Positions 20,166-40,276 of a stretch of 64,000 nucleotides of DNA are shown in pieces (positions within the stretch are counted from its first letter, which is position 1; the number at the start of each line of letters is the position of its first letter). This stretch comes from Patescibacteria group bacterium. Its GTDB lineage: Bacteria > Patescibacteriota > WWE3 > UBA101185 > 2-01-FULL-41-18. The notes below the pieces were generated by a model that saw only the letters and a list, made by a program, of their open reading frames with translations, was not told the DNA's origin and ran no database searches. The translations under genes and the position numbers were made by a program. The DNA lies in NCBI GenBank assembly GCA_038064575.1, contig JBBTST010000005.1:1382-65381 (forward strand), written 5' to 3'.

Positions 20166-20232
20166 TGGCTGAGCATGGCTGTCTAGAACCTGTTTCATTC
20201 TCCAGGCTAGAAATGAGACAAATGAAACAGTA
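20166..20232 (+). repeat. Repeat A, a tRNA-3'-end-like direct repeat. It is the partner of repeat B at 24416-24482.
   Basis: About 67 nt and roughly 80 percent identical to copy B in the same orientation. On the minus strand it reads TTCTAGACAGCCATGCTCAGCCA, which looks like T-loop, T-stem 3' strand, acceptor 3' strand, discriminator and CCA. It contains a perfect 10-bp inverted repeat CTGTTTCATT/AATGAAACAG. Confidence 0.55.
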
Positions 20233-23744: not shown

Positions 23745-24098
23745 TTACATTCTGAAATGAGAATAAATTCTTGAGAGTAGTTTTGAAAAAATCATGGCGC
23801 AAAGAGCCATTACTAACCAGATATCAATATTGTGTTGTAATGCTTGTATGGTTATACCCAAGATTAGAGTACCAACACCGACGAGATAAGAGATTCTTCC
23901 TGCCGTCAGAATATGTATGGATTCGCGTTCATCTGAGGACTTTTCTCTAAATAAATATGCAGCGAACGTAAGAAAAGATAAGATAAAACCCACAATCAGC
24001 ATGGATACAACACTATCAGGCATGCTTAAGTTGCCTGGATTAAGAAAAATTATAGCAATCACGAGTATTCCGATAGCACTTATAGTTTCTATTATCAT
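23745..24098 (-). CDS. small membrane protein
   Basis: 117 aa with four hydrophobic segments. Its start overlaps the stop of the XRE regulator (ATGA). Confidence 0.35.
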   Translation of the reverse strand: MIIETISAIGILVIAIIFLNPGNLSMPDSVVSMLIVGFILSFLTFAAYLFREKSSDERESIHILTAGRISYLVGVGTLILGITIQALQHNIDIWLVMALCAMIFSKLLSRIYSHFRM

Positions 24099-24307
24099 AG
24101 TAATTTCTCAATTATAAACAATTTCTCAACTGATGTATTGAAATACTTTGCTATTTTTAGGGCGAGTAGTACCGAAGGAGTATAGTTGCCTTTTTCTATT
24201 GCAATAATAGTTTGTCTTGTAACATCAACAGCTTTAGCAAGATCCTCCTGCGTGACCTTGTTTTTAGCCCTATATTCTTGCACATAATTTTTAATCTGCT
24301 CTGTCAT
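24095..24307 (-). CDS. XRE-family helix-turn-helix transcriptional regulator
   Basis: 70 aa Cro/C1-type HTH (VTQEDLAKAVDVTRQTIIAIEKGNYTPSVLLALKIAKYF). Confidence 0.7.
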   Translation of the reverse strand: MTEQIKNYVQEYRAKNKVTQEDLAKAVDVTRQTIIAIEKGNYTPSVLLALKIAKYFNTSVEKLFIIEKLL

Positions 24308-24415: not shown

Positions 24416-24482
24416 TGGCTGAGCATGTCGGTCTAGAACCCATTTTACTCTCTAGGATGTAAATGAGACAAATGAGACAGTA
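24416..24482 (+). repeat. Repeat B, a tRNA-3'-end-like direct repeat and partner of repeat A
   Basis: See repeat A. On the minus strand it reads TTCTAGACCGACATGCTCAGCCA. It sits immediately 3' of the Shedu-like gene. Confidence 0.55.
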
Positions 24483-24492
24483 CTCAACTGTG

Positions 24493-25653
24493 TTATAGCT
24501 TCTCACGCGATAAGTGCATAGAAGCATTACCTCTATCTAATAAGTCTTTATATGTAATCACTTCAATACCATGTAGTGCATGATTCATCTTTCTCAGAGC
24601 ATCTCTCTTATATATGTCCCAGTTAGTACTATCGCCAATTAAAATATAGGCATGGGGTTTGAGCAAAGATAGCTCAATATTATATATTTGAGCAATATTA
24701 GGTTCAATTTCTCTTCTTAGCCTATCAACTTCACTCAAGTAATTAATAACCTGTCCTATAGCAACATTTGTTTCTGCTGACCATCGCCATGCATTAGTAT
24801 GACTAGTGTCTTTAATAATAACCTCATCTGATGGGAGTTTAATTTCCAGAATGTCTACAAATCCATCTAGTGTAGGAAATAGGTAGTCGGGCATAATACC
24901 TGTTAGATTTATCTTTGCTTTCTCAATAGGTTTTTGGTAGTTCACACCAAATAACCAGTTATTTTTATAAATCCATTTTTGCCATGAATCGTCACCTGTA
25001 GTTTCCGAATAATTACCGTGTTCTAATCTCATACCGAGTTCATCGATCACATTCTGCTTTTTGCTTTGAATTCGTGCATATGTTAATTTTTGGATTAAAG
25101 TAGGATTTGATTCTGATAGATATACCCATACGTCTTCACCATATCCCGCATCAATAAGTTTCTTAACATAAGCAACTTTATTTTCGTCTGTTATTATGAC
25201 TTTTTCTGGATCAACTATAGTGTAAGAAGTTGCATCAAAATCAATTTCTTCAATACCTTTTATAAAATTTATTAATCCAAAGAAGTTTTCATGACACGAA
25301 TCCAAATCAACTCTTGCTTTAATAAGCTTGTCATCTTGCGTTTCCTTCGAGAAATTGCTAATTGCTTTATTAGAAATGTCTCTTATTTCAAATGAAAATC
25401 GTGGTGTAAACTTTCCATTTTCCTTTTTTATTAATGTAATTACACATGACTTTTCTACCTTAGCGGATTCCTCTAAGACAAATCTTTTTATAAGACCTTT
25501 TTTTGTATTTTTGAAGTACCAAAAACCATTGGTGCCAGTTTTGTCAATCTCAATTGTTGTTAAAGAATCAGAACCAACCACAAAATCTGTGTTTTCGTAA
25601 TCAGGTTCTACCGCCCACATTTTTAGTCGTTTTCGCTGATCATCAGTTAACAT
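24493..25653 (-). CDS. Shedu-like (DUF4263) PD-(D/E)xK nuclease, candidate antiphage effector SduA
   Basis: 386 aa. The C-terminal region carries MPDYLF...(14 aa)...DILEIK, a PD / ExK triad with the spacing seen in characterised SduA. A variable N-terminal domain is typical for Shedu. Confidence 0.5.
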   Translation of the reverse strand: MLTDDQRKRLKMWAVEPDYENTDFVVGSDSLTTIEIDKTGTNGFWYFKNTKKGLIKRFVLEESAKVEKSCVITLIKKENGKFTPRFSFEIRDISNKAISNFSKETQDDKLIKARVDLDSCHENFFGLINFIKGIEEIDFDATSYTIVDPEKVIITDENKVAYVKKLIDAGYGEDVWVYLSESNPTLIQKLTYARIQSKKQNVIDELGMRLEHGNYSETTGDDSWQKWIYKNNWLFGVNYQKPIEKAKINLTGIMPDYLFPTLDGFVDILEIKLPSDEVIIKDTSHTNAWRWSAETNVAIGQVINYLSEVDRLRREIEPNIAQIYNIELSLLKPHAYILIGDSTNWDIYKRDALRKMNHALHGIEVITYKDLLDRGNASMHLSREKL

Positions 25654-25784: not shown

Positions 25785-27461
25785 CTACTTATTATCTGTT
25801 ACGCGAGCAACTAATTTCTTCCCATCCTCAGACCAAGATAGTTTTACGCTTCGTTCTGGTTTCCTAGGATATTTCTCTAAAAATTCTTTGTTTTCGGAAA
25901 TTAAATAGACTGTACAGTATGTTCTTCCATCAGGTCTTTTTAGTTTCCTGCCGTGTAAAATACCTTCTCGTTCAAGTTTACCTCTAGTAGCAGGCTGAAC
26001 ACTAAATTCGGACTTAATTTCGTATTCTTTAATCCAAATCTTATTATCATGATCCCAACTTAAAGATGGGATAATACCTTCCTTAATGTTTCTCCAACAA
26101 TCAGCACATCTTAAACCATCAAGATTCCACCATATTTTATTACTTTCTATTGTTTCTCTACATATAGCACAGGTATAGTGACCTTCCGTAGGTTCGAGAA
26201 AAAATCCCTCTGGTTCTTTTTCTAGTCTTCTCTTTCTGATGTTTTCTACAGCTTCTTGTTTGCCTTGGATTTTCGCCATTTGGACATAAGGGTGGTTTGC
26301 ATACTTAGACTTCTTTATAGGGTCAAAGTCCTGTTTCTTATCCTCTTTAACTTTTCCTGCTATTTCTAACAAATCCTCCTCTCGCTCATACCCTTTTAAT
26401 TTGCCAGAGATGTAACCTAATCTGTCACTAAGACCTTCATTCATTAAACGCCAGTTTGTATCTTCTAATTTTGTTTTTAATAGTTTTTGAAGATCATATT
26501 GTGAAGTCCTTTTATTACGAGTGGGGTCGGAATCTTGAAAAGAGAAAGGTACGATAACATGCCTATCAATTTCAGGTTTATCGAAAAAAAGCTTAGTATA
26601 TTTATGTTCATCTAAAATGCTACTAAGCATTGCTTCAAGATCCGCAATACTTAATCTTTTTAATCTTGATACTTTTTCATAAATTGGGTTATCAATCTCA
26701 CGCTTAACCTCTTCCTTTACAAAAGAAGCATACTCGGACGCTTCCATTAGTTCGATTGCTTCTGCTCCCTTTTCTTCATCAAGACAGAATTCACTTCTAT
26801 ATTTTTCAAGTAATGCTTTATCTTCGTCTTCTTTAGCTTTACGTTCTGCTCTGCTTTTTCCGAAATCGTTAACGTCTGTATTTTTATAGCCACAAGATTT
26901 ACAAACAGTTTTCCAAGTTATTACCTCCCCTTTTCTAGTTTGAGAAACTTTTACTTCTTTATTACACTTAGGACAAAGCTGTGGCTTAGATTCGTGGATT
27001 TCTCCGTTGTCGTAAACAGCAGTTTTCTTAGTACATTTTGTGCAGTCGAAAAAGAACAGTACTCTAAGAGGTTTATCTGTCCAATCGTTTTCTAGAGTCT
27101 TAAATGTTGTTTTCATAGCGGAGTTACAATCAGGACACCTTATGTCTTGTGGTTCAGAAGTATTATCGTATTTGTCTTGAAACTTTTGATCTCGGTCTAT
27201 CCACTCATTTAGTCGTGTCTTTTTATTTTGAAACTCTAAACCCTTTTTAACATACAGGCTTACATTTAACATGTATGAAAAGGCTTTATGTCGCTCTTCG
27301 TCTGGTTTGTCCTTTAACTTTTCATCGTTGGAGCTGTTTTGATAGGCTTTCTGGCATATGCGGATATGGTCTAGGCATTCTTTAATTGTGAATAAGTCGT
27401 ATAGATCAATATAGTATTGTTCAGATTTAAGGTGTTTTTCACCCCTATCTTTTTCTTCCAC
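25785..27461 (-). CDS. multi-zinc-ribbon protein of unknown function (558 aa)
   Basis: Six CxxC pairs form three predicted zinc ribbons: CPDC/CTKC, CPKC/CKSC and CAIC/CADC. No enzymatic motif recognised. Last gene of a tightly spaced three-gene operon with 12- and 17-nt gaps. Confidence 0.5.
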   Translation of the reverse strand: MEEKDRGEKHLKSEQYYIDLYDLFTIKECLDHIRICQKAYQNSSNDEKLKDKPDEERHKAFSYMLNVSLYVKKGLEFQNKKTRLNEWIDRDQKFQDKYDNTSEPQDIRCPDCNSAMKTTFKTLENDWTDKPLRVLFFFDCTKCTKKTAVYDNGEIHESKPQLCPKCNKEVKVSQTRKGEVITWKTVCKSCGYKNTDVNDFGKSRAERKAKEDEDKALLEKYRSEFCLDEEKGAEAIELMEASEYASFVKEEVKREIDNPIYEKVSRLKRLSIADLEAMLSSILDEHKYTKLFFDKPEIDRHVIVPFSFQDSDPTRNKRTSQYDLQKLLKTKLEDTNWRLMNEGLSDRLGYISGKLKGYEREEDLLEIAGKVKEDKKQDFDPIKKSKYANHPYVQMAKIQGKQEAVENIRKRRLEKEPEGFFLEPTEGHYTCAICRETIESNKIWWNLDGLRCADCWRNIKEGIIPSLSWDHDNKIWIKEYEIKSEFSVQPATRGKLEREGILHGRKLKRPDGRTYCTVYLISENKEFLEKYPRKPERSVKLSWSEDGKKLVARVTDNK

Positions 27462-27478
27462 TCTTCTATTTTACACGC

Positions 27479-27691
27479 TCAATTAATTTTTCTGAATCTG
27501 TACTTATCTTTTATATTGTCATGGAAATATGCACCGTGGGAGCTAGAATTCATTAAGCTTCGATAAACATTTTCCGGCACATTAAAATATTGGTATATAC
27601 CACCGTCGTTAAATTCTATTTCTAAAGTTGACGTTAAGCCATCATAACCAATGGAGTCTATATTAGATGAAGTTACGTTAGTTCGTTGCAT
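27479..27691 (-). CDS. KTSC domain protein
   Basis: 70 aa matching the KTSC signature SSNI.SIGYD..T.TLEIEF.DGGIYQY..VP..VY..LMN..S.G.YF..NIK..Y. Confidence 0.6.
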   Translation of the reverse strand: MQRTNVTSSNIDSIGYDGLTSTLEIEFNDGGIYQYFNVPENVYRSLMNSSSHGAYFHDNIKDKYRFRKIN

Positions 27692-27703
27692 GTCGTTATT
27701 TTA

Positions 27704-29197
27704 TCACTTCATTTGCTGAGCTGCCAGATAATCTTTAATTACCATGGTTGCTTTACAGTCATCCTCGTTGTAATCCAGAATCCTTTGTAATTTTTTTGGG
27801 TCTTGGTCTTTTAAATACTCGTTATACCACTGAATAGACAACGCTCCAGATGGTGTTTCATCCCTCCATTTAAACCCGAGATATTGGGCAATTTCTTTTA
27901 CTGAATAACTACCTAACGGCCAGTCTGTGTGGGGCAAAATCACATGGGTATATAAATCAACTGCTATTTCCTTATCAAAAAATGCTTCAAGTTCTTCTTC
28001 TGTTACAACATTAGGGTAAAGTTCTCTCATTTTCTTATAAATTGTTTTCTCATGCTGGGAGTAGTAATAAACTGCAAAATCATCTGTTGGTAATGATCGA
28101 ATGTATTCCCAAAATTCAATCCAAGCCTGTTTCTCGGCTTCTGGTGTTGTATCTGATGCTACAAAGGGTACAAATCGTTCACCATTTGGCGATCTTTCAT
28201 AAACTCCGTGCAAATAGACCATTTCTTGCGTTGGATCATCCTCAATATCAAAGTATAGTTCATAAGATTTTTGTGGAAATTCTAGATGTTTGTAAATCAC
28301 TGGTTTTGAATTGCTATTTAGGAGAAACGCTCTTTGCACTATTTTAGTTAAAGTTTTTTCAGCGATACCAGAAAGAAAATTCTTATCTGTAGCTTTCTTT
28401 GCCATAACCTCGGCTACATTTACATTTATAATATCTTCAACGCGTTCAATGCCTAAGTCTTCATTTAGTTTATCCCTTTTACTTCTTCCTAAATAAAAAA
28501 TAGTTGTTAAGTCGTGTGTATTTTTAGCCCATGTTTTGCAACTTTTATACCAAGGGCAGAGTTTACAAATTCCTGCCATTGCAGGTTTGTTTTGTATTTT
28601 ATTATCAAGCATTAACTCTACTTCATTTCTTATTTCATAATAGAACTGCCACCAAGTATTTTTGTTCTTTATACCTATTTCATTTTGAAGATCGTAAATC
28701 ACTTCTTGATTGTGAATATCTATAATTCTAGCTTTATCAGAGTTAGCAAATCCAAGCTTTTTTAGGATCTCCACATAGTGACATAGCTGCACAGCATAGT
28801 GTTTTTTGTATTTTTCTTCACCTTCTTCATCAGATCCTTCAAATCCGCGTCCACTCTTTATATCTATAGGAGTATATGTACCATCCTCATTACTTTTTAG
28901 TAGATCCGGAATTCCTAAAAGATTTTCGTGCATTAATACACCTTGATAAATAAGACCCGTGCCTTTTTTCATTTCTTCGATTGTTTCTTCAAAGCGTTGT
29001 TCGTAGCTCCCTTCAGATAAGTTTGCTAATTGGCCTAATGTAGAAACCACTTTACCTTCGTGTAATACTCCCTTATCCCAAAGCAATTGCACAAATGGGT
29101 TTGGTTCTGGGTTCTTTTCTTCTTGTGGACCGTACTTATCCCTCCACACTCGGTGCGTACATTGTAAGTAGTTGTACAAAGTTGAAGCGGATATCAT
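27704..29197 (-). CDS. TM0106-family RecB/Cas4-like Fe-S nuclease
   Basis: 497 aa. N-terminal Cys (LQCTHRVWRDKYGP) plus CKLCPWYKSCKTW give a four-Cys Fe-S cluster pattern as in Cas4/AddB. Nuclease motifs GIPDLL...IDIKS are present. The C-terminal half is RNase-H-like, as in TIGR03491 proteins. Confidence 0.65.
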   Translation of the reverse strand: MISASTLYNYLQCTHRVWRDKYGPQEEKNPEPNPFVQLLWDKGVLHEGKVVSTLGQLANLSEGSYEQRFEETIEEMKKGTGLIYQGVLMHENLLGIPDLLKSNEDGTYTPIDIKSGRGFEGSDEEGEEKYKKHYAVQLCHYVEILKKLGFANSDKARIIDIHNQEVIYDLQNEIGIKNKNTWWQFYYEIRNEVELMLDNKIQNKPAMAGICKLCPWYKSCKTWAKNTHDLTTIFYLGRSKRDKLNEDLGIERVEDIINVNVAEVMAKKATDKNFLSGIAEKTLTKIVQRAFLLNSNSKPVIYKHLEFPQKSYELYFDIEDDPTQEMVYLHGVYERSPNGERFVPFVASDTTPEAEKQAWIEFWEYIRSLPTDDFAVYYYSQHEKTIYKKMRELYPNVVTEEELEAFFDKEIAVDLYTHVILPHTDWPLGSYSVKEIAQYLGFKWRDETPSGALSIQWYNEYLKDQDPKKLQRILDYNEDDCKATMVIKDYLAAQQMK

Positions 29198-29290: not shown

Positions 29291-29704
29291 TTATACCCTC
29301 CTAATTTTATCTATCAAAAACTTTATATAGTAACCTTTGCTAGATTTGACCTGTATGTACATATCATTTAGTAAATAGTTTCCAAAATGTCGTGGTTCAT
29401 TGTCTTGTCGATAATAGAAAGTTATAGGGGCTCTCTTTTTGTATTGGTTAGTTAGATACTCTTTAATGTAGTCTAAATCCTGCTCTCTATTAAACCTATC
29501 TACCGTATTTCTGGCATGTTTGAGGGGTTTTGGAATCTCAGCTTTTTTTGGGATATTATTTTTGGTATTAAAGTCCCAATGTTTCGCACAATTAGGACAC
29601 TTAAAAACACTGCCCTTACTTAGGTTTAATTTTAAAGTAATACCACAGGTGCAAACCACAAATTTGTAGGAATTGTTTTCGTTAGTTTTTATATTGTAAG
29701 GCAA
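29291..29704 (-). CDS. small zinc-ribbon protein. The annotated start is TTG; the frame stays open upstream to 29908.
   Basis: 137 aa with a CTCG...CPNC ribbon. The same frame stays open for 68 more codons upstream with no ATG/GTG/TTG. That stretch encodes a second ribbon, CDIC-x17-CLDC, and overlaps the end of the helicase gene. Confidence 0.45.
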   Translation of the reverse strand: MPYNIKTNENNSYKFVVCTCGITLKLNLSKGSVFKCPNCAKHWDFNTKNNIPKKAEIPKPLKHARNTVDRFNREQDLDYIKEYLTNQYKKRAPITFYYRQDNEPRHFGNYLLNDMYIQVKSSKGYYIKFLIDKIRRV

Positions 29705-29889: not shown

Positions 29890-32800
29890 TTATTTTTTTT
29901 TTACTATTTCATTAATTCTAGCGTCTAGTGTTGCAACCGGATCTTTACCTATATTAAATCTGTTTATTCTTAAAAAGCTGTAACCGTAGCCTTCTAGAAC
30001 TTTTTGTCTATATATGTCTTCACTGTTCATGTAACTTATATAGTTTGAGGCATTCACATTTTCTAGTTGCGTAAAATGTTCCCTAAAACCATCATACTCA
30101 ACAATTATCTTTTTGTTTTTAAAAATTAGTAAGAAGTCGACTTTATATTCTGGATATGTATATTCTCTAGATAATTGTTTAAGATACTTACCTAAATCGA
30201 ATTGGGGTATAAATTCTATAGTATCCTTGTTGTCTTTATAAAACTTAGTCAAATAGAATATTTCTTGAATTTTAACTTCCATTGGGGAATTTGGATCTGT
30301 ACCTCCTATGATGGTGTTTTTTCCGTTTATCAGTTCATCTCTGTAGTGTATTAGTGCATTCCTAAGCTCACCTTTAAACTCCTCAATTGGTTTACTAAGC
30401 ACAAAATGAATACAATCTTTCGCTCTACTAAACCCTACATTCAGGCGCTGTGCTTTGACATTGTCCTTATTTTCATCAAACAGTACAGGAAATATCCAAT
30501 TAAGCATGTCCTTTTCTTTTGTTGCTACCATAGAATAGAAAATATAATCACGTTCTTCCCCCTGACATGTGTCGAATGTCATGATTTTCAATTTACGATC
30601 ACTAAACAACCATTCCCTTTCCTCTAGCTTGTTCAATACATCAAATAAAAGTGTCACTTGTTCTCTATGTGGAGTTATTATTCCAATAGTTTTAGTGAAG
30701 CCATCTGCCTTTAGTTGCTTAATTACATTAACTATATGCTTTATTTCCAGTTCATTTGTATTGCTATTTTTATCAAGTTTCCCATCATGTTTAATTACAT
30801 CAAACTTAATAACTTCGGTTAGTGGAACACCTCTAATTTTCATACTTTGCAACGTATTATGATAAAAGTATTTATCTGAATAAGATATTATTTCAGGGTA
30901 ACATCGAAAGTGTTTTTGTAATTGACACTGGTAGTTTCTAATAAAACGTGAAAATTTCAGTATTGAGTTCTTAATGTCAAAGTTATCTCTTACCTTTGTT
31001 TCCCAGCCCATCTTATCTTCTCCATTTATCTTTTCTGCTCTAAAAACCTCCTTTATACGTGTTTTATATTGCTGATTGGTTACAGTGCTTGCATTGCCCG
31101 CTTTTACATTCGAAAACTGCTTATCATCTCCTAAAACAATTACTTGTTTACCTCGAATTAGGGCAGGCAAGGCTTGAGATATACTCACTTGAGATGCTTC
31201 ATCGATAATAATTAGATCAAATAAATCTTTTTCTAACGGTATGTATTCAGCATAATCTCTTATTCCAGCTAAAATGCAGGGAAAAGCTTTTTTTAAATTT
31301 TTAAACAGTGCTATAGGGAATTCTTGTTTATTTTTAAGTATAGTTTTAAGTGTATTAACCTCCCCTGCATTATCTTGAGAATACTCGATTATTCTTTTGT
31401 CCAAGAAATAGGTCATTTGAGCAGTTATTAATTGCTCTACAGTCTCAATTCTAGTTATATAGTCATCCGCAGGTGCATTTGTAAAACTGTTTGTTAGCTT
31501 CGATTCTAGATGTTTATAATCAATGATTTCTCCTAATAATTCTTCTGACTTTTCCAACAGAAGAAAATCAAATTCATTTATGTTACCTTCAATATTTATA
31601 TTTAACTCTTTAGCCAGTCCTGGATGTAATTCTATAAATTCCTCCACATACTCAAAGTTTTTGGAAAGCTTAGCTAACACCAAACATGAATTACAATATT
31701 CTTTGATTCTTTCAGTATTGATATCATTTTTTATAACATCAGTGCTTAATTCCTTATCGATAATTTTAAGTCCTTCGTTCTCTAAATAAACAAAGCCGGC
31801 ATTTAACTCGCTTGAGATACGCTCTAAATTTAGTATGTCTACATAACAGAGCAATAATTTTGGATTAAGATTCTTAAGAGCATCAAAGTTAACAATTATA
31901 TTGTGTATTTCCTTTATATCTGTGAAAAACTCATCAAACGCATTAATATAATCAGAATTCTTGTAATTACTTAAAAGCTGAAAGACATTATCAAATGTTT
32001 CGCGTTTTCTACTTACAATCTTAGATTGAATAAAATAAAGTAGGTCATATAAGTATGTTATAGAGTCGAGTTTTTTTTCAGGATTCTCAATATTAAAGTA
32101 GTTAAATGTTTTCTTAAGCTCTCTTGTTAAATCATTAAGTTCACTCTTATTGAAAAAAAAGCCAAAAATAGGTTTACGCAAACTTTTAACATTCTTTATA
32201 TATTTATTAAGCGCATTCAGTGCTGTGTCTAGATCGATGTCAGGATCCACATATAAATCATGTAGCTTACCAAGATCGTTAGAATACTTTTGGTTAAACT
32301 TCAATGCGTTTTGAAAAAGATTCTGTACAAAAACTACGTCACCATAAACATATTCCAGTTCTGAAAACAAGTTACTTTTTAACCATTGTTTGTATAGAGG
32401 CCACTCACTAAGGGCTTTTAGAGAAATAATATGATTGAAGATAGCTTCGACCCGTAATATATGTTTTATAGATAATAAGTTACTTGCCTTATCCTTCCCC
32501 AATACAGGACCTAATTCTCTATAAGCATCATTTGTTTTCTTACCTTCTAGAGAACTAATGATTTGTTTTGAAGTTTCAACATTTTTTAAAAGTTCTTGTA
32601 GTTTTTCTGTATTCTTCTCATTTATAAAACTTTTGCTGTAATTGGCATTTGTGTGAAAAGACAGTTGTTCAAGTAGTTCTTTTAATTTTGGTAACTTTTC
32701 TAAACCTTCTAGGTCTTCGTTTTTAATTAGATCGTTTTCAAATGAAAGCTTATTTTCTAGTTCAAAGTACCTAATAATATCGTCAATACTAATTGCGTCA

Positions 32801-34551
32801 AAGTGCTTAATAGTTGTCTCTAAATCATTTTTTAGCTTAGTAAGTAAGAGATCTTTCTGTTGTACGGTCGATTCTTGTGTCTTTTTATATGCTAGATAAT
32901 GATTCTTTATTTTTTGAATTGTCTGACCTTGGACAATTTTATAAAACTTGTTTCCGGACCCACCTAATCTTAAAATGGGATTCTGAAAATCCTCTTCGTG
33001 CCTAATCTTATTTAATGTCCCCGCAATTTTTTCCTCTACAACATCTAAAGCCTCTTTTTTATCGGAAAGTACAAGGACTGATTTTTCCTCTAGTAAAGCT
33101 TTACATATGATTGCTGTGATTGTGTGACTTTTACCAGTTCCTGGGGGGCCTTCAAGTATCATAAATTTACAATCGGGTTTTTGCAGTGCCATCAATACTT
33201 GTTTCTGCTCATCATTAAGTGGAATTGGACTTTCAACAATAAGCTTAGTAGAGCAGCTCAGTTCCTGCCATTCTGTATCAATCTCATCAATAAAAGATTT
33301 CGGATTTTCCTTTATAAACCCATCTAATAAATGCGTGAAGTCTTCTATAAGTTCACCATCATCGTTTAGTATTTTCTCATAATCATTAATGAGTGCTTCA
33401 TCAGATTTGTCAAAAAGAAATATATAACATTTATTAGACAACCCTGTAATTAAACTTAGTCCTTTTTGCAATCTGGCATCCTGTATATCTATTGTCAGAC
33501 CTAACTCTAAAAAGTTTTCTATTTTTCTTACTATTGTTGTTACTTTATCAAAAAAATCATCTTCACTATTAATATAAATAACTCTTTCAAAATCTACGGC
33601 AAGTGTAGACTTTCTGTTTGATTGGCGATTGAATTCCTGCACTACAAAATCTAAACCTTGTGAATTTACATATATTCTATGTTCAAAATTTAATATAAAT
33701 CTGTCCTCATCTTTTTCTACATGTATAGGCATATAGAATAGTGGAAAAGTTTCATTACCCAAAGATAGCTCAAAGAAATAAAAGTAAATTTCCGTTTTAT
33801 CTATCAATTTACCGTTCCTATATATTTGATATAGCTCGGAAAATAAATCGCTTACAGCACTATTTTCGAAAAACATTGTTAGCTTTGCCTTCAGACTTTC
33901 CAAAGGTATGATCTCTTCTAAAGCGCTAACGATATCGAAATCAACAGCACCTTCTTTTACTTCAAATATTTTCTGTAGTAGATCAGTTAATTGATTTTCT
34001 ACATCGCCAAAAAGAGTATCTATGATATCTGTCTCAAGCTGAAATTTACTGTTTTCGTCCGCCAAGCCGAGATTTTCTAGTGGTTTATCTAAATCTTGTA
34101 AAAATGGGTAGATTAATACTTTCGAATAAGAGCTTTTAATTGAACTGATGCCTTCTTCCAAATACTGATCATACGAATCATTGTACTTAGTTTTGCAGTC
34201 ATAAATGCGTTTTTCTATCTCTATATGTGCCTGAGTGATATCTTTGCTTTTTAATGCTTCAACTCTAGAAATTATTAGTTTTAATAGTGATGTTGGAATT
34301 TTAGTAGTATATTCATTTTTTTTAACTACTAAAGATTGATTTTCAAAAGATTTGGCAAATTGCTTGAGAAGAGCCTGCTTAAAATCAATAAATTTATCTA
34401 AATCTACTGCGACTTTCAAACCATTGTTTGTTTTCTGTATTGTATTTCTTTTTGGCACTCTTCTCTTCTTGAAGTCAGTTTCAAGAAAGTTCATAAAGTA
34501 TTTTGCAACCTCTTTAACAAAGTTGTTTGGTTCAGTGACTGCTTTTGCCAT
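29890..34551 (-). CDS. giant UPF1/DNA2-like SF1B helicase with a C-terminal DUF559/Vsr-like PD-(D/E)xK endonuclease domain
   Basis: 1553 aa. Walker A is LEGPPGTGKSHTI and motif II is IIIDEASQV...VLGDDKQF. A second RecA-like domain is IMTFDTCQGEERDYIFYSMV. The C-terminus, VDFLL...IIVEYDGFREH, has the DUF559 / REase_MTES_1575-type fold. There is a long N-terminal alpha-rich region of about 450 aa. Confidence 0.75.
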   Translation of the reverse strand: MAKAVTEPNNFVKEVAKYFMNFLETDFKKRRVPKRNTIQKTNNGLKVAVDLDKFIDFKQALLKQFAKSFENQSLVVKKNEYTTKIPTSLLKLIISRVEALKSKDITQAHIEIEKRIYDCKTKYNDSYDQYLEEGISSIKSSYSKVLIYPFLQDLDKPLENLGLADENSKFQLETDIIDTLFGDVENQLTDLLQKIFEVKEGAVDFDIVSALEEIIPLESLKAKLTMFFENSAVSDLFSELYQIYRNGKLIDKTEIYFYFFELSLGNETFPLFYMPIHVEKDEDRFILNFEHRIYVNSQGLDFVVQEFNRQSNRKSTLAVDFERVIYINSEDDFFDKVTTIVRKIENFLELGLTIDIQDARLQKGLSLITGLSNKCYIFLFDKSDEALINDYEKILNDDGELIEDFTHLLDGFIKENPKSFIDEIDTEWQELSCSTKLIVESPIPLNDEQKQVLMALQKPDCKFMILEGPPGTGKSHTITAIICKALLEEKSVLVLSDKKEALDVVEEKIAGTLNKIRHEEDFQNPILRLGGSGNKFYKIVQGQTIQKIKNHYLAYKKTQESTVQQKDLLLTKLKNDLETTIKHFDAISIDDIIRYFELENKLSFENDLIKNEDLEGLEKLPKLKELLEQLSFHTNANYSKSFINEKNTEKLQELLKNVETSKQIISSLEGKKTNDAYRELGPVLGKDKASNLLSIKHILRVEAIFNHIISLKALSEWPLYKQWLKSNLFSELEYVYGDVVFVQNLFQNALKFNQKYSNDLGKLHDLYVDPDIDLDTALNALNKYIKNVKSLRKPIFGFFFNKSELNDLTRELKKTFNYFNIENPEKKLDSITYLYDLLYFIQSKIVSRKRETFDNVFQLLSNYKNSDYINAFDEFFTDIKEIHNIIVNFDALKNLNPKLLLCYVDILNLERISSELNAGFVYLENEGLKIIDKELSTDVIKNDINTERIKEYCNSCLVLAKLSKNFEYVEEFIELHPGLAKELNINIEGNINEFDFLLLEKSEELLGEIIDYKHLESKLTNSFTNAPADDYITRIETVEQLITAQMTYFLDKRIIEYSQDNAGEVNTLKTILKNKQEFPIALFKNLKKAFPCILAGIRDYAEYIPLEKDLFDLIIIDEASQVSISQALPALIRGKQVIVLGDDKQFSNVKAGNASTVTNQQYKTRIKEVFRAEKINGEDKMGWETKVRDNFDIKNSILKFSRFIRNYQCQLQKHFRCYPEIISYSDKYFYHNTLQSMKIRGVPLTEVIKFDVIKHDGKLDKNSNTNELEIKHIVNVIKQLKADGFTKTIGIITPHREQVTLLFDVLNKLEEREWLFSDRKLKIMTFDTCQGEERDYIFYSMVATKEKDMLNWIFPVLFDENKDNVKAQRLNVGFSRAKDCIHFVLSKPIEEFKGELRNALIHYRDELINGKNTIIGGTDPNSPMEVKIQEIFYLTKFYKDNKDTIEFIPQFDLGKYLKQLSREYTYPEYKVDFLLIFKNKKIIVEYDGFREHFTQLENVNASNYISYMNSEDIYRQKVLEGYGYSFLRINRFNIGKDPVATLDARINEIVKKK
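29893..29902 (-). repeat. A10 homopolymer on the coding strand (T10 on plus), directly abutting the helicase stop codon
   Basis: Minus-strand sequence is GTA-A10-TAA. The A-run forms the terminal KKK codons of the helicase. One extra A, or a -1 slip, enters the start-less zinc-ribbon frame. Confidence 0.8.
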
Positions 34552-34815: not shown

Positions 34816-36168
34816 ATGACTAACAAACTTAGTGGTATCAATGATGCCAAGCTACAAATATTTAATTTGAACATAAAGGATATTAATCCTTCCGCCTATA
34901 ACCCTCGAAAATGGGATAAGTATAAAATTGACCAATTAACCAAAAGTATTACTGACTTTGGTGTTGTAGATCCTTTAGTAATTAATTCCGCCGAAAACAG
35001 AAAGAATATAGTTATTGGCGGTCATTTTAGACTTAAAGTCTTAAAAGAAATGGGATATATCGAAGTCCCATGTGTGTATGTAAATATCCCTGAGATTGAA
35101 CGTGAAAAAGAATTAAATTTAAGACTAAACAAAGCCGTTGGTGATTGGGATTTCAAACTTCTGGCTGAGTTTGATACATCCCTTTTATCAAACGTTGGTT
35201 TTTCAAGCGAAGAGTTAGATCAAATATTTGATATTGATGATTCACCAGAGCAATTTGATTTAGAAAAAGAACTTAATAAACTAAACATTAAAAATATCAC
35301 TATTAAAAAAGGCGATGTAATTTCTCTTGGAAATAGTAAATTAATGTGTGGGGATTCTACAGTCGAGGAGGATATGTTAAAGCTGATGAATGGAGAGAAA
35401 GCAGACATGTGCTTCACAGACCCACCCTATCTATTGGATTATTTAAACGGAAAAAAGAAAGGTGGTAAAGCAACAACAGGATTTGGAGCCAAAAGAAATC
35501 GCCGTTATCTCGAAACAGACACATTACCAGATGACTTCACAGAGAAATGGATGGCGAACATTAATAAAATCCAAAACGATAGTTTCTCCATAATAGTCTA
35601 CGAAAATTGGAAGAACATAAGAACTATTTGGGGAGAACTTGAGAAATATTGGAAGGTAAAAAACATGATTGTTTGGAGATTACCCAACAGGGTGCAGGGT
35701 TTTTCTGGTAAATATAGATTCTTTTCCAAACATGATATTGCTATGGTTGGAGCTTCACCTAACACAGATATTGAGTTCAACATGGAAACAGAGCCAGATG
35801 GTTTGCAGGAGGAATATGAAACAGCTCTTTATGCGATATCAGGTAAACCACAATGGGAAAGCTATAAAAAAGGCAAGAAGTATCAGCCAACAGACTTTAT
35901 TGATTACAAAGCCTCCGATGAAAAGAGCTCTGGGCAAGGAGTAGTATTTGGTACTAAGCCAATCGAAATATTAATACCATACATAAAAGTATTAACTAGA
36001 AGAAATGAATTAATCGTTGAACCTTTTGGTGGTAGTGGATCTACTCTTATTGCAGCAACAAAAATGAGACGTAGGTGTTATGTAATGGAGAAATCTCCTG
36101 TTTATGCTGAAGTTATTGTTAAAAGATGGGAGAAGTTAACTGGTTTAAAGGCGAAAGTTAATGCCTAA
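34816..36168 (+). CDS. ParB-like nuclease domain / DNA (amino) methyltransferase fusion
   Basis: 450 aa. The N-terminal ParB/Srx fold is present (DPLVIN...GGHFRLKVLKEMGY). The C-terminal MTase has motif IV DPPY (MCFTDPPYL) and motif I FGGSGST, a beta-class order consistent with N6-adenine (or N4-cytosine) methylation. Confidence 0.75.
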   Translation: MTNKLSGINDAKLQIFNLNIKDINPSAYNPRKWDKYKIDQLTKSITDFGVVDPLVINSAENRKNIVIGGHFRLKVLKEMGYIEVPCVYVNIPEIEREKELNLRLNKAVGDWDFKLLAEFDTSLLSNVGFSSEELDQIFDIDDSPEQFDLEKELNKLNIKNITIKKGDVISLGNSKLMCGDSTVEEDMLKLMNGEKADMCFTDPPYLLDYLNGKKKGGKATTGFGAKRNRRYLETDTLPDDFTEKWMANINKIQNDSFSIIVYENWKNIRTIWGELEKYWKVKNMIVWRLPNRVQGFSGKYRFFSKHDIAMVGASPNTDIEFNMETEPDGLQEEYETALYAISGKPQWESYKKGKKYQPTDFIDYKASDEKSSGQGVVFGTKPIEILIPYIKVLTRRNELIVEPFGGSGSTLIAATKMRRRCYVMEKSPVYAEVIVKRWEKLTGLKAKVNA

Positions 36169-36538
36169 GCGTACTAAATATGTTGAGGATAAAATACAGG
36201 AGGATAAGGACAGACTCCTAGCTGAATTGGAAAAAATGCCTGTAGTTGAGGTAGCTTGTAAAAGAACTGGTATATGTAGAGCTACCTACTATCGTTGGAT
36301 TAATGAAGACAAGGCTTTTAGCCAATCAGCACGTATAGCTCAAATAGAAGGTATTAAGTTAATAAATGACGCAATGGAATCTACACTAATTTCGTTAGCT
36401 TTAGAAAATAGAAGCATGGGTGCTATCAGGTTTTGGCTTGAAAATAGACACGCTGATTACAAGCAAAACAAAGAGCTAGAGAGGTCTAGGAAGCTGAAGA
36501 ATAATTTTACTAAGCTATCCAGACCGGATATCTATTAG
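36161..36538 (+). CDS. terminase small subunit-like HTH DNA-binding protein
   Basis: 125 aa with an N-terminal HTH (VACKRTGICRATYYRWINED) and a C-terminal RFWLENRHADY, reminiscent of phage TerS (Terminase_2-like) proteins. It overlaps the MTase stop by 8 nt, consistent with an operon. Confidence 0.4.
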   Translation: MPKRTKYVEDKIQEDKDRLLAELEKMPVVEVACKRTGICRATYYRWINEDKAFSQSARIAQIEGIKLINDAMESTLISLALENRSMGAIRFWLENRHADYKQNKELERSRKLKNNFTKLSRPDIY

Positions 36539-36782: not shown

Positions 36783-37325
36783 ATGTATTTATACGAGGCT
36801 AAAAAATTTAATGTTAAGTACATTACAGGTATAGGAGCAGTCACTAAGCCTACAGATAGTTATTTGTTATCTATAGAAAGTGAAGGAATAAAACTTTGGC
36901 GTCTTCTATCACCAACAGTATTAATAAAATGGACAGATATTCAGAAAATTTCCTCAGAAACACAAAATGAAGCATCCAAGTCCTTATCAATGGGCAAAGC
37001 TGCAGTAGGTTTAGTATTACTGGGACCGCTCGGTGCCTTAATAGGAGCAGGAATGGGGTCTAAAAAGCCACTCTTTGTTTCTATTTCTTACAAAGACTCG
37101 TATGGAGAAATTTGCGAGTGCTTGGTGCAAACTAAACAAGCACATGAAATAGCTACGAAACTAAACAACGAGAGAAAAGAATATTATAGAAAAAACAATA
37201 TTCCACTAACAACTGAAACGGTTTCAAATTTAGATCAGCTTGAAAAGCTAGCAGAACTTAAAGATAAAGGTGTTATTTCTTCGGATGAGTTTGAGGCTAA
37301 GAAGAAACAATTACTAGACTTGTAA
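36783..37325 (+). CDS. SHOCT-domain protein
   Basis: 180 aa with a central hydrophobic Gly-rich segment and a C-terminal SHOCT motif (LEKLAELKDKGVISSDEFEAKKKQLL). Confidence 0.5.
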   Translation: MYLYEAKKFNVKYITGIGAVTKPTDSYLLSIESEGIKLWRLLSPTVLIKWTDIQKISSETQNEASKSLSMGKAAVGLVLLGPLGALIGAGMGSKKPLFVSISYKDSYGEICECLVQTKQAHEIATKLNNERKEYYRKNNIPLTTETVSNLDQLEKLAELKDKGVISSDEFEAKKKQLLDL

Positions 37326-40054: not shown

Positions 40055-40128
40055 ATGCAGTTCTTGGCTGGGGAGCAGGGATTCGAACCCCAATAGGCAG
40101 CTCCAAAAGCTGCTGTCCTACCATTAGA
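40055..40128 (-). tRNA. tRNA-Gln (anticodon UUG)
   Basis: Hand-folded. A U1-A72 acceptor (TGGGGAG/CTCCCCA) with discriminator G and encoded CCA, as in bacterial tRNA-Gln. The anticodon stem is GCAGC/GCTGC with loop TTTTGGA. T-arm is GGGGTTCGAATCCC. Confidence 0.85.
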
Positions 40129-40276
40129 CGACTCCCCATCATTTCAAAACACCTTCAAATACCAAGAAGATTATATCATTTAGATGTAACTACTAATTAA
40201 TATAGGAAAACTAGCATTTTCTTCTGGTATCTATTCTAACAATTATATAGTCCGCAAACTTTGCTATAATTTTCTT

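What the first reader, a model, noticed from the sequence alone, without database searches (positions are those of the whole stretch)
25785..29197. Uncharacterised three-gene operon: TM0106 RecB/Cas4-like Fe-S nuclease, KTSC domain protein and a 558-aa multi-zinc-ribbon protein
Three minus-strand genes lie in one block: the nuclease at 27704-29197, the KTSC gene at 27479-27691, and the zinc-ribbon gene at 25785-27461. The gaps between them are only 12 and 17 nt, so they are almost certainly co-transcribed.

The block sits in a defence/mobile island. Immediately 5' are a giant helicase-nuclease and a small zinc-ribbon gene. Immediately 3' is a Shedu-like nuclease.

The first product has the Cas4/AddB-type four-Cys Fe-S arrangement, PD-(D/E)xK motifs and an RNase-H-like C-terminal half, which is the TM0106 family architecture. 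The second is a bare KTSC domain of unknown function. The third carries six CxxC pairs, giving three predicted zinc ribbons, and no recognisable catalytic motif.

I do not recognise this trio as any named defence system. Its position on the same strand and directly downstream of a DNA2/UPF1-like helicase is reminiscent of a split Dna2/AddAB-like nuclease-helicase machine with extra zinc-ribbon sensor or adaptor subunits.
Basis: partly seen in the sequence, partly recalled or inferred. Interest (0 to 1): 0.8.

Follow-up and report, generated by a model that had tools for sequence, protein, structure and literature searches.

The report
Loosely linked nuclease, KTSC, zinc-ribbon genes
The three genes are real and sit in a mobile defence island of a tiny-genome (CPR/Patescibacteria) bacterium, but they are not a fixed three-gene system: they are separable parts that only sometimes travel together, and the nuclease's most likely working partner is the helicase gene upstream of it.

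Summary
Observation confirmed. The three minus-strand ORFs, their 12- and 17-nt gaps, the domain calls and six invariant CxxC pairs are as described.

Interpretation partly supported. None of 79 loci with a homologue of the 558-aa protein has a TM0106 or KTSC gene nearby. Among 80 TM0106 loci, none has the zinc-ribbon gene and two have KTSC.

The order nuclease, then KTSC or a Cas4-like PDDEXK_1 gene, then zinc-ribbon gene recurs only in the window's own TM0106 subclade (4 of 9 loci; the full trio once more, L164). A distant TM0106 homologue, DUF2779, lies 5' of the zinc-ribbon gene in about 17 of 81 loci.

TM0106 behaves as a tightly coupled 3' partner of varied ATP-driven enzymes: the giant SF1 helicase, MmeI and Type ISP restriction enzymes, SNF2, OLD and AAA_13. 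On plasmids of cultivated bacteria it is fused to an AAA_11/AAA_12 helicase. KTSC matches an assembly domain of an antiphage HerA.

The 558-aa protein belongs to a large orphan family (at least 1000 clusters) with no enzymatic domain and no structural analogue.

Short gaps are weak operon evidence here: KTSC and the zinc-ribbon gene each have a leaderless-type -10 box.

No named system matches. Moderate interest.

The parts
27704..29197 (-). TM0106-family dual nuclease (497 aa). The N-terminal half is a Cas4/RecB-like PD-(D/E)xK domain with a 4-Cys Fe-S motif. The C-terminal half is an RNase-H-like DEDDy 3'-5' exonuclease domain.
   Evidence: TIGR03491 246.9 bits against a cutoff of 97.45. PF13482 at residues 314-491. 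Invariant C13, C211, C214, C220, D98, K114, Q137, Y141, D317, E319, Y476 and D480. It has an SD-like GGAG 10 nt upstream and no -10 box.
27479..27691 (-). Stand-alone KTSC domain protein (70 aa); probably a small protein-protein assembly or adaptor module.
   Evidence: PF13619 94.8 bits. PDB 7x8c at E = 2e-23, and the C-terminal arm of the antiphage HerA 8wiv at E = 1.6e-17. That arm contacts neighbouring subunits (PMC11472057). Only three other KTSC genes occur in 1.9 Mb of loci, all beside TM0106.
25785..27461 (-). 558-aa orphan protein, long form of a large uncharacterised family. Domain order: helical hairpin, two zinc ribbons, coiled coil, ferredoxin-like alpha/beta domain, basic helix, third zinc ribbon, winged-helix-like C-terminus. 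No catalytic domain.
27698..27727 (-). Promoter-like site (extended -10, TGATAAAAT) ending 6 nt before the KTSC start codon. The TM0106 stop codon TGA is part of it.
   Evidence: The same geometry is found at 21 of 72 genes against 3.6% of control sites.
27468..27496 (-). Promoter-like site (GTGTAAAAT) ending 6 nt before the GTG start of the 558-aa gene.
29890..34551 (-). Giant SF1 (Upf1/Dna2-like, AAA_11/AAA_12) helicase, 1553 aa. JGI names homologues 'very-short-patch-repair endonuclease', suggesting a C-terminal Vsr/DUF559-like nuclease region, but no nuclease domain was detected in this protein here. It is the likely motor partner of TM0106.
   Evidence: Pfam AAA_11, AAA_12 and AAA_30. Only sub-threshold matches to Hhe, ProA, MkoA and PDC-S37. 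Homologues lie directly upstream of TM0106 in L093, L096, L097, L125, L126, L135, L136, L152 and L165. Source names for homologues.
29291..29704 (-). 137-aa Cys-rich small protein between the helicase and TM0106; it appears to be a companion of the helicase.
   Evidence: ORF. Its C-terminal half has homologues right after the helicase in L160 and L163. It is not related to the WYL-like gene that precedes TM0106 elsewhere.
24493..25653 (-). Shedu SduA nuclease, an independent single-gene defence system.
   Evidence: PADLOC SduA 268.8 bits; PF14082 68.5 bits. It has its own TATAAT box 5 nt before the start codon.
24095..24307 (-). XRE-type HTH regulator near the left edge of the island.
   Evidence: PF01381 56.9 bits.
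34816..36168 (+). ParB_N plus N6/N4 DNA methyltransferase. It is the island backbone gene, divergent from the defence-gene array.
   Evidence: PF01555 and PF02195; phrog_498. About 70% identical homologues flank zinc-ribbon or TM0106 arrays in more than 20 loci.
36161..36538 (+). Small-terminase-like HTH protein (backbone).
   Evidence: Weak matches to PF13022 and to terminase small-subunit PHROGs. The same gene sits next to ParB-MTase in L169 and many other loci.
36783..37325 (+). SHOCT-domain protein (backbone; also present in L169).
   Evidence: PF09851.
38172..39467 (+). Large serine recombinase; probably the integrase of the island.
   Evidence: Resolvase, Recombinase and Zn_ribbon_recom domains.
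40065..40138 (-). tRNA-Gln at the right edge of the island.

Best explanation
The block is a stretch of separable modules inside an integrated island of about 16 kb (roughly 24.1-40.1 kb). The island belongs to a recurrent CPR/Patescibacteria island family whose backbone is a ParB-methyltransferase, a small-terminase-like gene, a SHOCT gene and a serine recombinase, next to tRNA-Gln.

Shown:
- TM0106 is a dual nuclease with a Cas4-like Fe-S PD-(D/E)xK domain and a DEDDy exonuclease domain, and all catalytic residues are conserved.
- Across genomes it sits as a tightly coupled 3' gene behind varied ATP-driven DNA enzymes.
- In other bacteria it is fused to an SF1 helicase.

Inferred:
- In this window TM0106 works with the upstream giant SF1 helicase, possibly with the small Cys-rich protein as well. 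The helicase unwinds or translocates on foreign or broken DNA. TM0106 then degrades both strands, 5'-3' through the Cas4-like domain and 3'-5' through the DEDD domain.
- KTSC is a small assembly or adaptor subunit. It occupies a variable slot directly after TM0106 that is filled by a second Cas4-like nuclease (PDDEXK_1) in sister islands.
- The 558-aa protein is non-enzymatic and probably binds nucleic acid through three zinc ribbons and a winged-helix-like end. It probably self-associates through a coiled coil and a PilO-like alpha/beta domain. It is an optional accessory (sensor, regulator or recruiter) that prefers to sit 3' of TM0106/DUF2779-type nucleases but mostly occurs without them.

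The three genes are therefore loosely linked neighbours, not an obligate operon. KTSC and the 558-aa gene probably have their own leaderless-type promoters.
For: Separability:
- 0 of 79 zinc-ribbon loci have TM0106 or KTSC.
- 0 of 80 TM0106 loci have the zinc-ribbon gene, and 2 of 80 have KTSC.

TM0106 as a coupled 3' partner:
- Its upstream neighbour is on the same strand in 53 of 57 loci, with a median gap of 4 nt; 36 of 53 gaps are 20 nt or less, against 33% in this window.
- The partners are the giant helicase, MmeI, SNF2 plus DUF2130, OLD, PIF1, AAA_13 (PADLOC candidate PDC-S06) and Type ISP/IIG RM enzymes.

Helicase link:
- Plasmid fusions combine PDDEXK and RNase_H_2 with AAA_11/AAA_12.
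- Majorek et al. 2014 report tandem AAA domains in COG2251.

Loose linkage:
- L164: TM0106 (79%), KTSC, a 309-aa gene, long zinc-ribbon gene.
- L165: helicase, TM0106, PDDEXK_1, one opposite-strand gene, short zinc-ribbon gene.
- L169: Type ISP, TM0106, PDDEXK_1, short zinc-ribbon gene.
- DUF2779 is a distant TM0106 homologue (HMM E = 5e-10). It lies within 2 kb and 5' of the zinc-ribbon gene in 14 of the 15 loci that have it. These form 10 independent groups, plus the viral locus L171.

KTSC: it matches the inter-subunit arm of the antiphage HerA.

The zinc-ribbon protein has no enzymatic domain and no structural analogue.

Independent start signals.

Island context.
Against: - There is no experimental evidence for any activity or any defence phenotype.
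- In the window TM0106 is not directly adjacent to the helicase; a 137-aa gene and gaps of 185 and 93 nt intervene.
- Helicase homologues often occur without TM0106. Three of four helicase-centred loci have none, and in the fourth the TM0106-like gene is convergent.
- The tight coupling of TM0106 to varied upstream genes could instead mean that TM0106 marks a hotspot where defence genes insert.
- The zinc-ribbon gene's preference for TM0106/DUF2779 could reflect shared island ancestry rather than function.
- DNA binding by the 558-aa protein is inferred only from fold elements. Domain charges are modest (pI 8.7 for zinc ribbons 1 and 2, 9.5 for the C-terminus).
- The -10 boxes are consensus matches, not mapped transcription starts.
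Confidence: 0.55

Rival explanations
1. TM0106, KTSC and the 558-aa zinc-ribbon protein, with or without the upstream helicase, form one dedicated multi-subunit anti-phage system. The zinc-ribbon protein senses infection, KTSC bridges the subunits, and TM0106 is the effector.
For: - The same gene order recurs in L164.
- The order nuclease, then KTSC or PDDEXK_1, then zinc-ribbon gene is seen in 4 of 9 loci of the window's TM0106 subclade.
- DUF2779 lies 5' of the zinc-ribbon gene in about 17 of 81 loci.
- All KTSC genes found lie beside TM0106.
- The setting is a defence island, with Shedu, RM and SMODS neighbours.
Against: - About 80% of zinc-ribbon genes have no TM0106/DUF2779-type neighbour.
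- 78 of 78 TM0106 loci outside the subclade lack the zinc-ribbon gene, and more than 95% lack KTSC.
- The intervening genes differ between loci.
- In L164 the zinc-ribbon gene carries an in-frame stop.
- The orientation of DUF2779 relative to the zinc-ribbon gene is mixed: co-directional, divergent and convergent.
- KTSC and the zinc-ribbon gene have separate promoter-like boxes.
Confidence: 0.12
2. The genes are not defence genes. They serve DNA maintenance or the life cycle of the mobile element. TM0106/DUF2779 would be a repair or recombination exonuclease that CPR bacteria need because they lack RecBCD/AddAB. The zinc-ribbon protein would be a DNA-binding replication, recombination or regulatory factor of the island.
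For: - Both families are unusually well conserved for defence genes: mean column identity is 69% for TM0106 and 58% for the zinc-ribbon family, with plateaus near 60% and 50% identity across CPR phyla.
- The DUF2779 homologue MMSYN1_0389 is quasi-essential in the minimal Mycoplasma JCVI-syn3.0 (PMC13621843).
- The zinc-ribbon gene recurs beside the ParB-MTase/TerS/TerL cassette and beside LexA-like and XRE regulators and recombinases.
Against: - The distribution is patchy, some genomes have two copies, and the flanks are variable.
- Immediate neighbours are overwhelmingly restriction-modification, Shedu, OLD, SNF2, SMODS and candidate defence genes.
- TM0106 fusions on plasmids sit next to BREX and a ubiquitin-like defence cluster.
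- Both families are nearly absent from viral contigs and absent from isolated phage genomes.
Confidence: 0.2
3. The co-location has no functional meaning. The three genes are independent cargo that accumulated at the same insertion hotspot next to the ParB-methyltransferase cassette. The few shared arrangements are inherited from a common ancestral island.
For: - All loci that share TM0106 plus a zinc-ribbon gene (the window, L164, L165, L169) also share the ParB-MTase backbone at 67-76% identity.
- The content between and around the two genes varies.
- Each gene family is most often found without the others.
Against: - The nuclease-before-zinc-ribbon order is kept although the fillers change.
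- The association is repeated with the distantly related DUF2779 in 10 independent groups, and in 14 of 15 loci it lies within 2 kb.
- The association involves both long and short zinc-ribbon forms.
- All three KTSC genes found elsewhere lie within 2 kb of TM0106 on the same strand, in three different arrangements.
Confidence: 0.13

Closest known systems
TM0106 family RecB-like putative nuclease (TIGR03491 / COG2251; Pfam RNase_H_2 PF13482)
   Same: The 497-aa protein is a full-length member, scoring well above the curated cutoff, with the Cas4-like 4-Cys nuclease half and the RNase-H-like exonuclease half.
   Different: The family has no characterised function. The window protein is the short stand-alone form, whereas plasmid-borne relatives in cultivated bacteria are fused to an SF1 helicase.
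DUF2779 (PF11074), including MMSYN1_0389 of JCVI-syn3.0
   Same: Same two-nuclease architecture (Cas4-like plus DEDD). It is a detectable distant homologue (HMM E = 5e-10) and is the commonest enzymatic neighbour of the zinc-ribbon family.
   Different: It is a different Pfam family. The Mycoplasma protein keeps only two of the four Fe-S cysteines, according to the paper. Its function is also untested.
Nuclease-helicase DNA-end processors (AddAB/AdnAB, Dna2) and single-protein helicase-nuclease defences (Hhe, Mokosh MkoA/MkoC helicase module)
   Same: A Cas4/AddB-type Fe-S PD-(D/E)xK nuclease sits next to, or is fused with, an SF1 AAA_11/AAA_12 helicase. The helicase region gives partial matches to MkoA, MkoC, Hhe, ProA and PDC-S37 models.
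   Different: All matches are far below the family cutoffs (for example Hhe 86 bits against 2000, and ProA 154 against 1500). TM0106 adds a DEDD exonuclease that AddB and Dna2 lack. The pairing is facultative. No PLD nuclease of Mokosh is present.
SIR2-HerA antiphage system (Paenibacillus sp. 453MF; PDB 8wiv series)
   Same: The KTSC protein is homologous (E = 1.6e-17) to the distal part of the HerA C-terminal arm domain, which contacts neighbouring subunits.
   Different: There is no HerA or SIR2 gene here, and KTSC is a free 70-aa protein. The role in assembly is an inference carried over from that structure.
Shedu (SduA)
   Same: The gene immediately 3' of the block is a clear SduA, and Shedu recurs near the zinc-ribbon gene in 9 of 79 loci.
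   Different: Shedu is a self-contained single-gene system. Nothing indicates that the trio belongs to it.
Hotspots of defence genes in mobile elements (P2/P4-type prophage and satellite hotspots; from my own knowledge of Rousset et al. 2022, not checked here)
   Same: A conserved backbone (ParB-MTase, TerS-like gene, recombinase) with a variable array of defence genes at one fixed position.
   Different: The host lineage (CPR) and the backbone differ. In the loci inspected no phage structural gene was recognised beyond TerL (the neighbours seen there are HTH_XRE and, in L010, HsdM); no dedicated search for portal or capsid genes was run.

Membership tests
TM0106 family (TIGR03491) | Full-length match to the curated family model above its cutoff | tested here: met
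   246.9 bits against a cutoff of 97.45, residues 3-491 of 497.
TM0106 family (TIGR03491) | N-terminal Cas4/RecB-like PD-(D/E)xK nuclease with a C...CxxCx5C Fe-S cysteine set | tested here: met
   C13, C211, C214, C220, D98, K114, Q137 and Y141 are invariant in 22 homologues. Cas4 models match residues 3-221.
TM0106 family (TIGR03491) | C-terminal RNase-H-like (PolB-exonuclease-like) domain with acidic catalytic residues | tested here: met
   PF13482 93.6 bits at residues 314-491. D317, E319, Y476 and D480 are invariant.
TM0106 family (TIGR03491) | Nuclease activity | not testable with these tools
   No member with a solved structure is detectable by sequence. No biochemical study was found.
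CRISPR-associated Cas4 (TIGR00372) | Score above the equivalog cutoff, and a cas/CRISPR context | tested here: not met
   32.6 bits against a cutoff of 65. Rfam found only tRNAs in the window, with no CRISPR repeat family. No cas gene was seen among the ORFs that were scanned.
KTSC domain (PF13619) | Match above the Pfam gathering score over the whole domain | tested here: met
   94.8 bits against 25, profile positions 1-58 of 58. PDB 7x8c at E = 2e-23.
Any named defence system in PADLOC v2.0.0 or NCBIfam antiphage models (the trio as a unit) | The component proteins match the models of a listed system | tested here: not met
   TM0106 matches only weak Cas4 models; KTSC and the 558-aa protein match nothing. 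The short zinc-ribbon form also matches nothing.
Conserved three-gene operon (TM0106 + KTSC + zinc-ribbon gene) | The three genes are co-localised in most genomes that carry them | tested here: not met
   0 of 79 zinc-ribbon loci have the other two. Among 80 TM0106 loci, 0 have the zinc-ribbon gene and 2 have KTSC. The full trio occurs only in the window and in L164.
Conserved three-gene operon (TM0106 + KTSC + zinc-ribbon gene) | A single transcription unit | tested here: inconclusive
   No terminator-like site lies between the genes. However, each of KTSC and the zinc-ribbon gene has a -10-like box 6 nt before its start codon, a geometry enriched 8-fold at gene starts in this window. No transcript data are available.
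Hhe / ProA / Mokosh (the upstream 1553-aa helicase) | Full-length match above the curated cutoff | tested here: not met
   Hhe 86.3 bits against 2000; ProA 154 against 1500. PADLOC MkoA, MkoC and PDC-S37 match only the helicase core, residues about 1090-1385.
Split nuclease-helicase machine (AddAB/Dna2-like way of working) | Nuclease and SF1 helicase are genetically coupled (fusion or conserved adjacency) | tested here: met
   Fusion proteins of 1118-1144 aa combine PDDEXK, RNase_H_2, AAA_11 and AAA_12. The helicase lies directly upstream in 8 of 57 loci, plus L165. The coupling is facultative: see the helicase-only loci.
Shedu (the downstream gene) | SduA / DUF4263 nuclease domain | tested here: met
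   PADLOC SduA 268.8 bits; PF14082 68.5 bits.

The most novel reading that the evidence does not exclude
The orphan zinc-ribbon family (at least 1000 clusters, no annotation, no structural analogue) is the sensor or adaptor half of a new, modular two-part DNA-surveillance system that is widespread in CPR bacteria. Its effector would be a Cas4-like/DEDD dual nuclease (TM0106 or DUF2779). KTSC or a second Cas4-like nuclease would be exchangeable third subunits, and diverse helicases or restriction enzymes would act as optional motors.
Probability: 0.2. Interest if true: 0.7.

Novelty: new variant of a known kind. Interest (0 to 1): 0.45.

Why it matters
CPR/Patescibacteria have tiny genomes and few recognised defence systems, yet their horizontally acquired genes are enriched for defence functions (PMC12455944).

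This work separates what is solid from what was over-read in the first-stage finding. It leaves three testable leads:

1. TM0106, a widespread and uncharacterised dual nuclease, behaves as a portable effector that plugs in behind many different ATP-driven DNA enzymes and is fused to a helicase in cultivated bacteria.
2. A very large zinc-ribbon protein family with no annotation or structural relative lives in these islands and prefers the company of TM0106/DUF2779 nucleases.
3. KTSC, a domain of unknown function, is tied here and in SIR2-HerA to antiphage nuclease or ATPase assemblies.

Any of these, if confirmed, would give a first function to a large 'unknown' family.

Tried and rejected

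2. small137 as a WYL-like protein related to the 99-aa gene that precedes TM0106 elsewhere. Rejected: hhalign probability 0.4%.

3. The roughly 270-aa ORFs after TM0106 in the wider set as PDDEXK_1. Rejected: that PDDEXK_1 type occurs only in the window's subclade.

4. The P0097 fusion of the zinc-ribbon protein to a nucleoside phosphorylase as a functional clue. It is only half a PNP_UDP_1 domain, in one of 120 hits, and is probably a gene-calling artefact.

5. Long att-type direct repeats bounding the island. None is convincing; the only long repeat (67 nt) brackets a different segment.

6. Promoter and terminator consensus scans. Counts are at or below shuffle expectation. Only the position-specific test was informative.

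7. My first tblastn screen suggested there was no zinc-ribbon/TM0106 linkage at all. This was revised after HMM searches of the closest TM0106 relatives.

8. Literature searches for TM0106, COG2251, KTSC, PF13482 or a CPR system of this composition found no named system.

Full report
**1. What is in the sequence**

The three minus-strand ORFs exist exactly as reported. They are 27704-29197 (497 aa, ATG start), 27479-27691 (70 aa, ATG start) and 25785-27461 (558 aa, GTG start), separated by 12 and 17 nt.

The 497-aa protein is a full-length member of TIGR03491, the 'TM0106 family RecB-like putative nuclease' (246.9 bits against a cutoff of 97.45). Its C-terminal half matches RNase_H_2 (PF13482). 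Its N-terminal half gives sub-threshold Cas4 matches. In 22 homologues the following residues are invariant: the Cas4/AddB-type cysteines C13, C211, C214 and C220; D98, K114, Q137 and Y141; and the exonuclease residues D317, E319, Y476 and D480. Both nuclease centres therefore look intact.

The 70-aa protein is a bare KTSC domain (94.8 bits).

The 558-aa protein has no match in Pfam, PADLOC or PHROGs. All six of its CxxC pairs are invariant across 25 homologues.

Shedu SduA lies directly 3' of the block (268.8 bits). A 1553-aa SF1 helicase with AAA_11 and AAA_12 domains and a 137-aa Cys-rich ORF lie 5' of it.

**2. Setting**

The window comes from a CPR/Patescibacteria genome. The source label on the identical proteins says so. 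G+C is about 35% and coding density about 91%.

The block lies in an island of about 16 kb. Housekeeping genes flank it: Trx, DsbD and MsrB on the left, and glyoxalase and SHMT on the right. G+C dips to 0.31 over the helicase.

From left to right the island holds an XRE HTH gene, Shedu, the trio, the small ORF and the helicase. Then, on the other strand, come a ParB_N-N6/N4 methyltransferase, a small-terminase-like HTH gene, a SHOCT gene and a large serine recombinase, next to tRNA-Gln.

**3. Is the trio conserved?**

Starting from the 558-aa protein, a scan of one genome per species returned 79 loci, nearly all from CPR MAGs. None has a TM0106 or KTSC gene within 8 kb, by tblastn or by HMM.

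The neighbours of the zinc-ribbon gene vary from locus to locus:
- XRE HTH genes (18 loci);
- LexA-like genes (16);
- DUF2779 (15);
- the ParB-MTase/TerS/TerL cassette (15);
- Shedu (9);
- HsdR and HsdM, type IIG RM enzymes, SMODS and serine recombinases.

Starting from TM0106, 80 metagenome loci were fetched. None has the zinc-ribbon gene. Only L101 and L139 have a KTSC gene.

**4. What does recur**

Three looser patterns emerged.

(a) DUF2779 (PF11074, 130 bits) has the same Cas4-like plus RNase-H-like architecture as TM0106, as Majorek et al. 2014 also noted. It is a distant homologue: its HMM hits TM0106 proteins at E down to 5e-10. In 14 of the 15 zinc-ribbon loci that have it, DUF2779 lies within 2 kb and 5' of the zinc-ribbon gene. 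These loci form 10 independent groups at 80% identity. One of the two viral-contig hits shows the same arrangement (L171).

(b) The closest relatives of the window's TM0106 (69-84% identity) were looked up one by one and searched with HMMs. They fall into three groups.

Loci with a zinc-ribbon gene:
- L164 (79%): AAA_13, TM0106, KTSC (1-nt gap), a 309-aa gene, then a long zinc-ribbon gene that is 52% identical and carries one in-frame TAA.
- L165 (78%): ParB-MTase(-), then helicase, TM0106, PDDEXK_1, one opposite-strand gene, and a short zinc-ribbon gene.
- L169 (69%): SHOCT, TerS-like gene and ParB-MTase(-), then Type ISP, TM0106, PDDEXK_1, a short zinc-ribbon gene (6-nt gap) and an SF1 helicase.

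Loci with TM0106 followed by PDDEXK_1 but no zinc-ribbon gene: L166, L167 and L081.

Loci with neither partner: L168 and L080.

In this subclade the slot after TM0106 therefore holds PDDEXK_1 in 5 of 9 loci and KTSC in 2 of 9. A zinc-ribbon gene follows in 4 of 9, against 0 of 78 in the rest of the family.

(c) In 1.9 Mb of fetched loci there are only three KTSC genes. All three lie on the same strand as a TM0106 gene and within 2 kb of it, in three different arrangements.

**5. TM0106's real partner**

Across 57 loci with enough upstream sequence, the gene before TM0106 is on the same strand in 53. The median gap is 4 nt, and 36 of the 53 gaps are 20 nt or less, against 33% of same-strand gaps in this window.

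The upstream genes differ:
- the giant helicase family (8 loci directly upstream);
- MmeI-type RM enzymes (7 directly upstream, 23 somewhere in the array);
- a WYL-like 99-aa gene (6);
- SNF2 plus DUF2130 (4);
- OLD, PIF1, AAA_13 (PADLOC candidate PDC-S06) and Type ISP/IIG enzymes.

On plasmids of cultivated Proteobacteria, 'TM0106 family' proteins are 1118-1144 aa. They consist of PDDEXK and RNase_H_2 domains fused to an AAA_11/AAA_12 SF1 helicase. They lie beside a ubiquitin-like E1/E2 cluster in one case, and BREX BrxL and a TrlF ATPase in the other.

The pairing is not obligatory. Helicase homologues often stand alone next to integrases.

**6. KTSC**

The window protein matches PDB 7x8c (E = 2e-23). 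It also matches residues 629-696 of the HerA subunit of the Paenibacillus SIR2-HerA antiphage system (E = 1.6e-17).

In that structure the 'C-terminal arm domain' (aa 576-696) wraps onto the neighbouring subunit and stabilises the split-spiral hexamer (PMC11472057). I infer that the free KTSC protein is a small assembly or adaptor subunit. This is a transfer from one structure, not a test.

**7. The 558-aa protein**

The family is large. In a library of 50%-identity representatives, at least 1000 clusters match at E = 1e-3 or better, and 377 at 1e-30 or better. Most clusters are a short form of about 360 aa that covers profile positions 1-365. The long form, with an extra zinc ribbon and a winged-helix-like tail, is a small subfamily. 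Some MAGs carry two copies.

The AF2 model is confident (pLDDT 83.4). Its domain order is a helical hairpin, two three-stranded zinc ribbons, a coiled coil, an alpha/beta ferredoxin-like domain, a basic helix, a third zinc ribbon and a helix-turn-helix with a beta hairpin.

No specific structural analogue was found:
- Foldseek against the PDB and against viral structures gave nothing at E = 0.001 or better.

The family is absent from isolated phage genomes and from PLSDB plasmids. It has only two hits among 2.9 million viral contigs.

With no catalytic motif, the most economical reading is a nucleic-acid-binding, self-associating accessory protein. This is an inference.

**8. Operon question**

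No terminator-like site separates the three genes. But this genome appears to use leaderless-type promoters widely. In the window, 21 of 72 genes have a hexamer matching at least 5 of 6 TATAAT positions that ends 4-9 nt before the start codon, against 3.6% of random intragenic sites. SD-like motifs are at background level (15% against 14%).

KTSC (TGATAAAAT-N6-ATG) and the 558-aa gene (GTGTAAAAT-N6-GTG) both have such a box. So do Shedu, the helicase and the HTH gene. TM0106 instead has a GGAG 10 nt upstream. Short gaps therefore do not show a single transcript.

**9. Verdict**

The trio is a real and correctly described stretch of genes. It is best read as separable modules in a recurrent CPR defence and mobility island, with three elements:
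- a helicase-linked dual nuclease;
- an exchangeable small subunit (KTSC here, PDDEXK_1 in sister islands);
- an optional orphan zinc-ribbon protein that tends to sit 3' of TM0106/DUF2779-type nucleases.

It matches no named system (literature). I rate it a new variant of a known kind (helicase/nuclease defence-island modules), of moderate interest.

The most novel reading still open is that the zinc-ribbon family and the Cas4-DEDD nucleases form a new modular system across CPR bacteria. I put this at about 20%.

Noticed in passing
whole window; examples at 24307, 25653, 27461, 27691, 34551, 38111 and 39485: Leaderless-type promoter geometry is common. 21 of 72 genes have a strong -10-like hexamer (often GTGnTAAAAT) ending 4-9 nt before the start codon, against 3.6% at control positions. 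Shine-Dalgarno-like motifs are at background level.
   Followed up: partly
window 20166-20232 and 24416-24482: A 67-nt direct repeat (84% identical) brackets the thioredoxin/DsbD/MsrB gene cluster. The second copy lies inside the 78-aa ORF just 3' of Shedu, ending 12 nt short of the Shedu stop codon. Rfam has no match there. Unexplained.
   Followed up: no
window 34816-36538; loci L010, L018, L020, L035, L038, L065 and L170: A cassette of ParB_N-methyltransferase, small-terminase-like gene, large-terminase-like gene and XRE HTH gene recurs in many CPR genomes. Beyond TerL I saw only HTH_XRE (and HsdM in L010), with no recognised structural gene, though I ran no dedicated search for portal or capsid genes. 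It is always divergent from a variable array of defence genes. The window and L169 have a variant that lacks TerL and has a SHOCT gene instead.
   Followed up: partly
window 29291-29704; L160 10166-10447; L163 9980-10198: The C-terminal half of the 137-aa Cys-rich protein has 40-45% identical homologues immediately after giant-helicase homologues in two other loci. This suggests a helicase plus small-protein pair.
   Followed up: partly
loci L087, L119, L134, L138, L144 and L147: A 99-aa WYL-like gene (4 of 5 members match PF13280 weakly, below threshold) directly precedes TM0106, overlapping it or separated by a few nt.
   Followed up: partly
L175 (Phenylobacterium plasmid pA) and L176 (Vibrio tubiashii p123): TM0106-SF1 helicase fusion proteins of 1118-1144 aa lie next to a multiubiquitin/E2/ThiF(E1)/DUF6527 cluster in one plasmid. 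In the other they lie after BREX BrxL and a SMEK-domain protein, and are followed by a TrlF-family ATPase.
   Followed up: partly
L006/L013, L022/L025 and L032/L051 (pairs on the same contig): Some genomes of about 1 Mb carry two diverged copies of the zinc-ribbon gene in different islands.
   Followed up: no
L164 9732-9734: The zinc-ribbon homologue in the only other locus with the full trio is interrupted by a single in-frame TAA, at a variable position just before the conserved YRLGY motif. It is either a pseudogene or an assembly error.
   Followed up: partly
locus titles: Many contigs that carry these CPR-type islands are labelled 'uncultured Gammaproteobacteria' or 'Pseudomonadales' in third-party MAG sets. 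The labels may be wrong; I did not check.
   Followed up: no
window 30000-34000: G+C falls to 0.31 over the giant helicase gene, against 0.35-0.39 in the flanks. This is consistent with recent acquisition of that gene.
   Followed up: no
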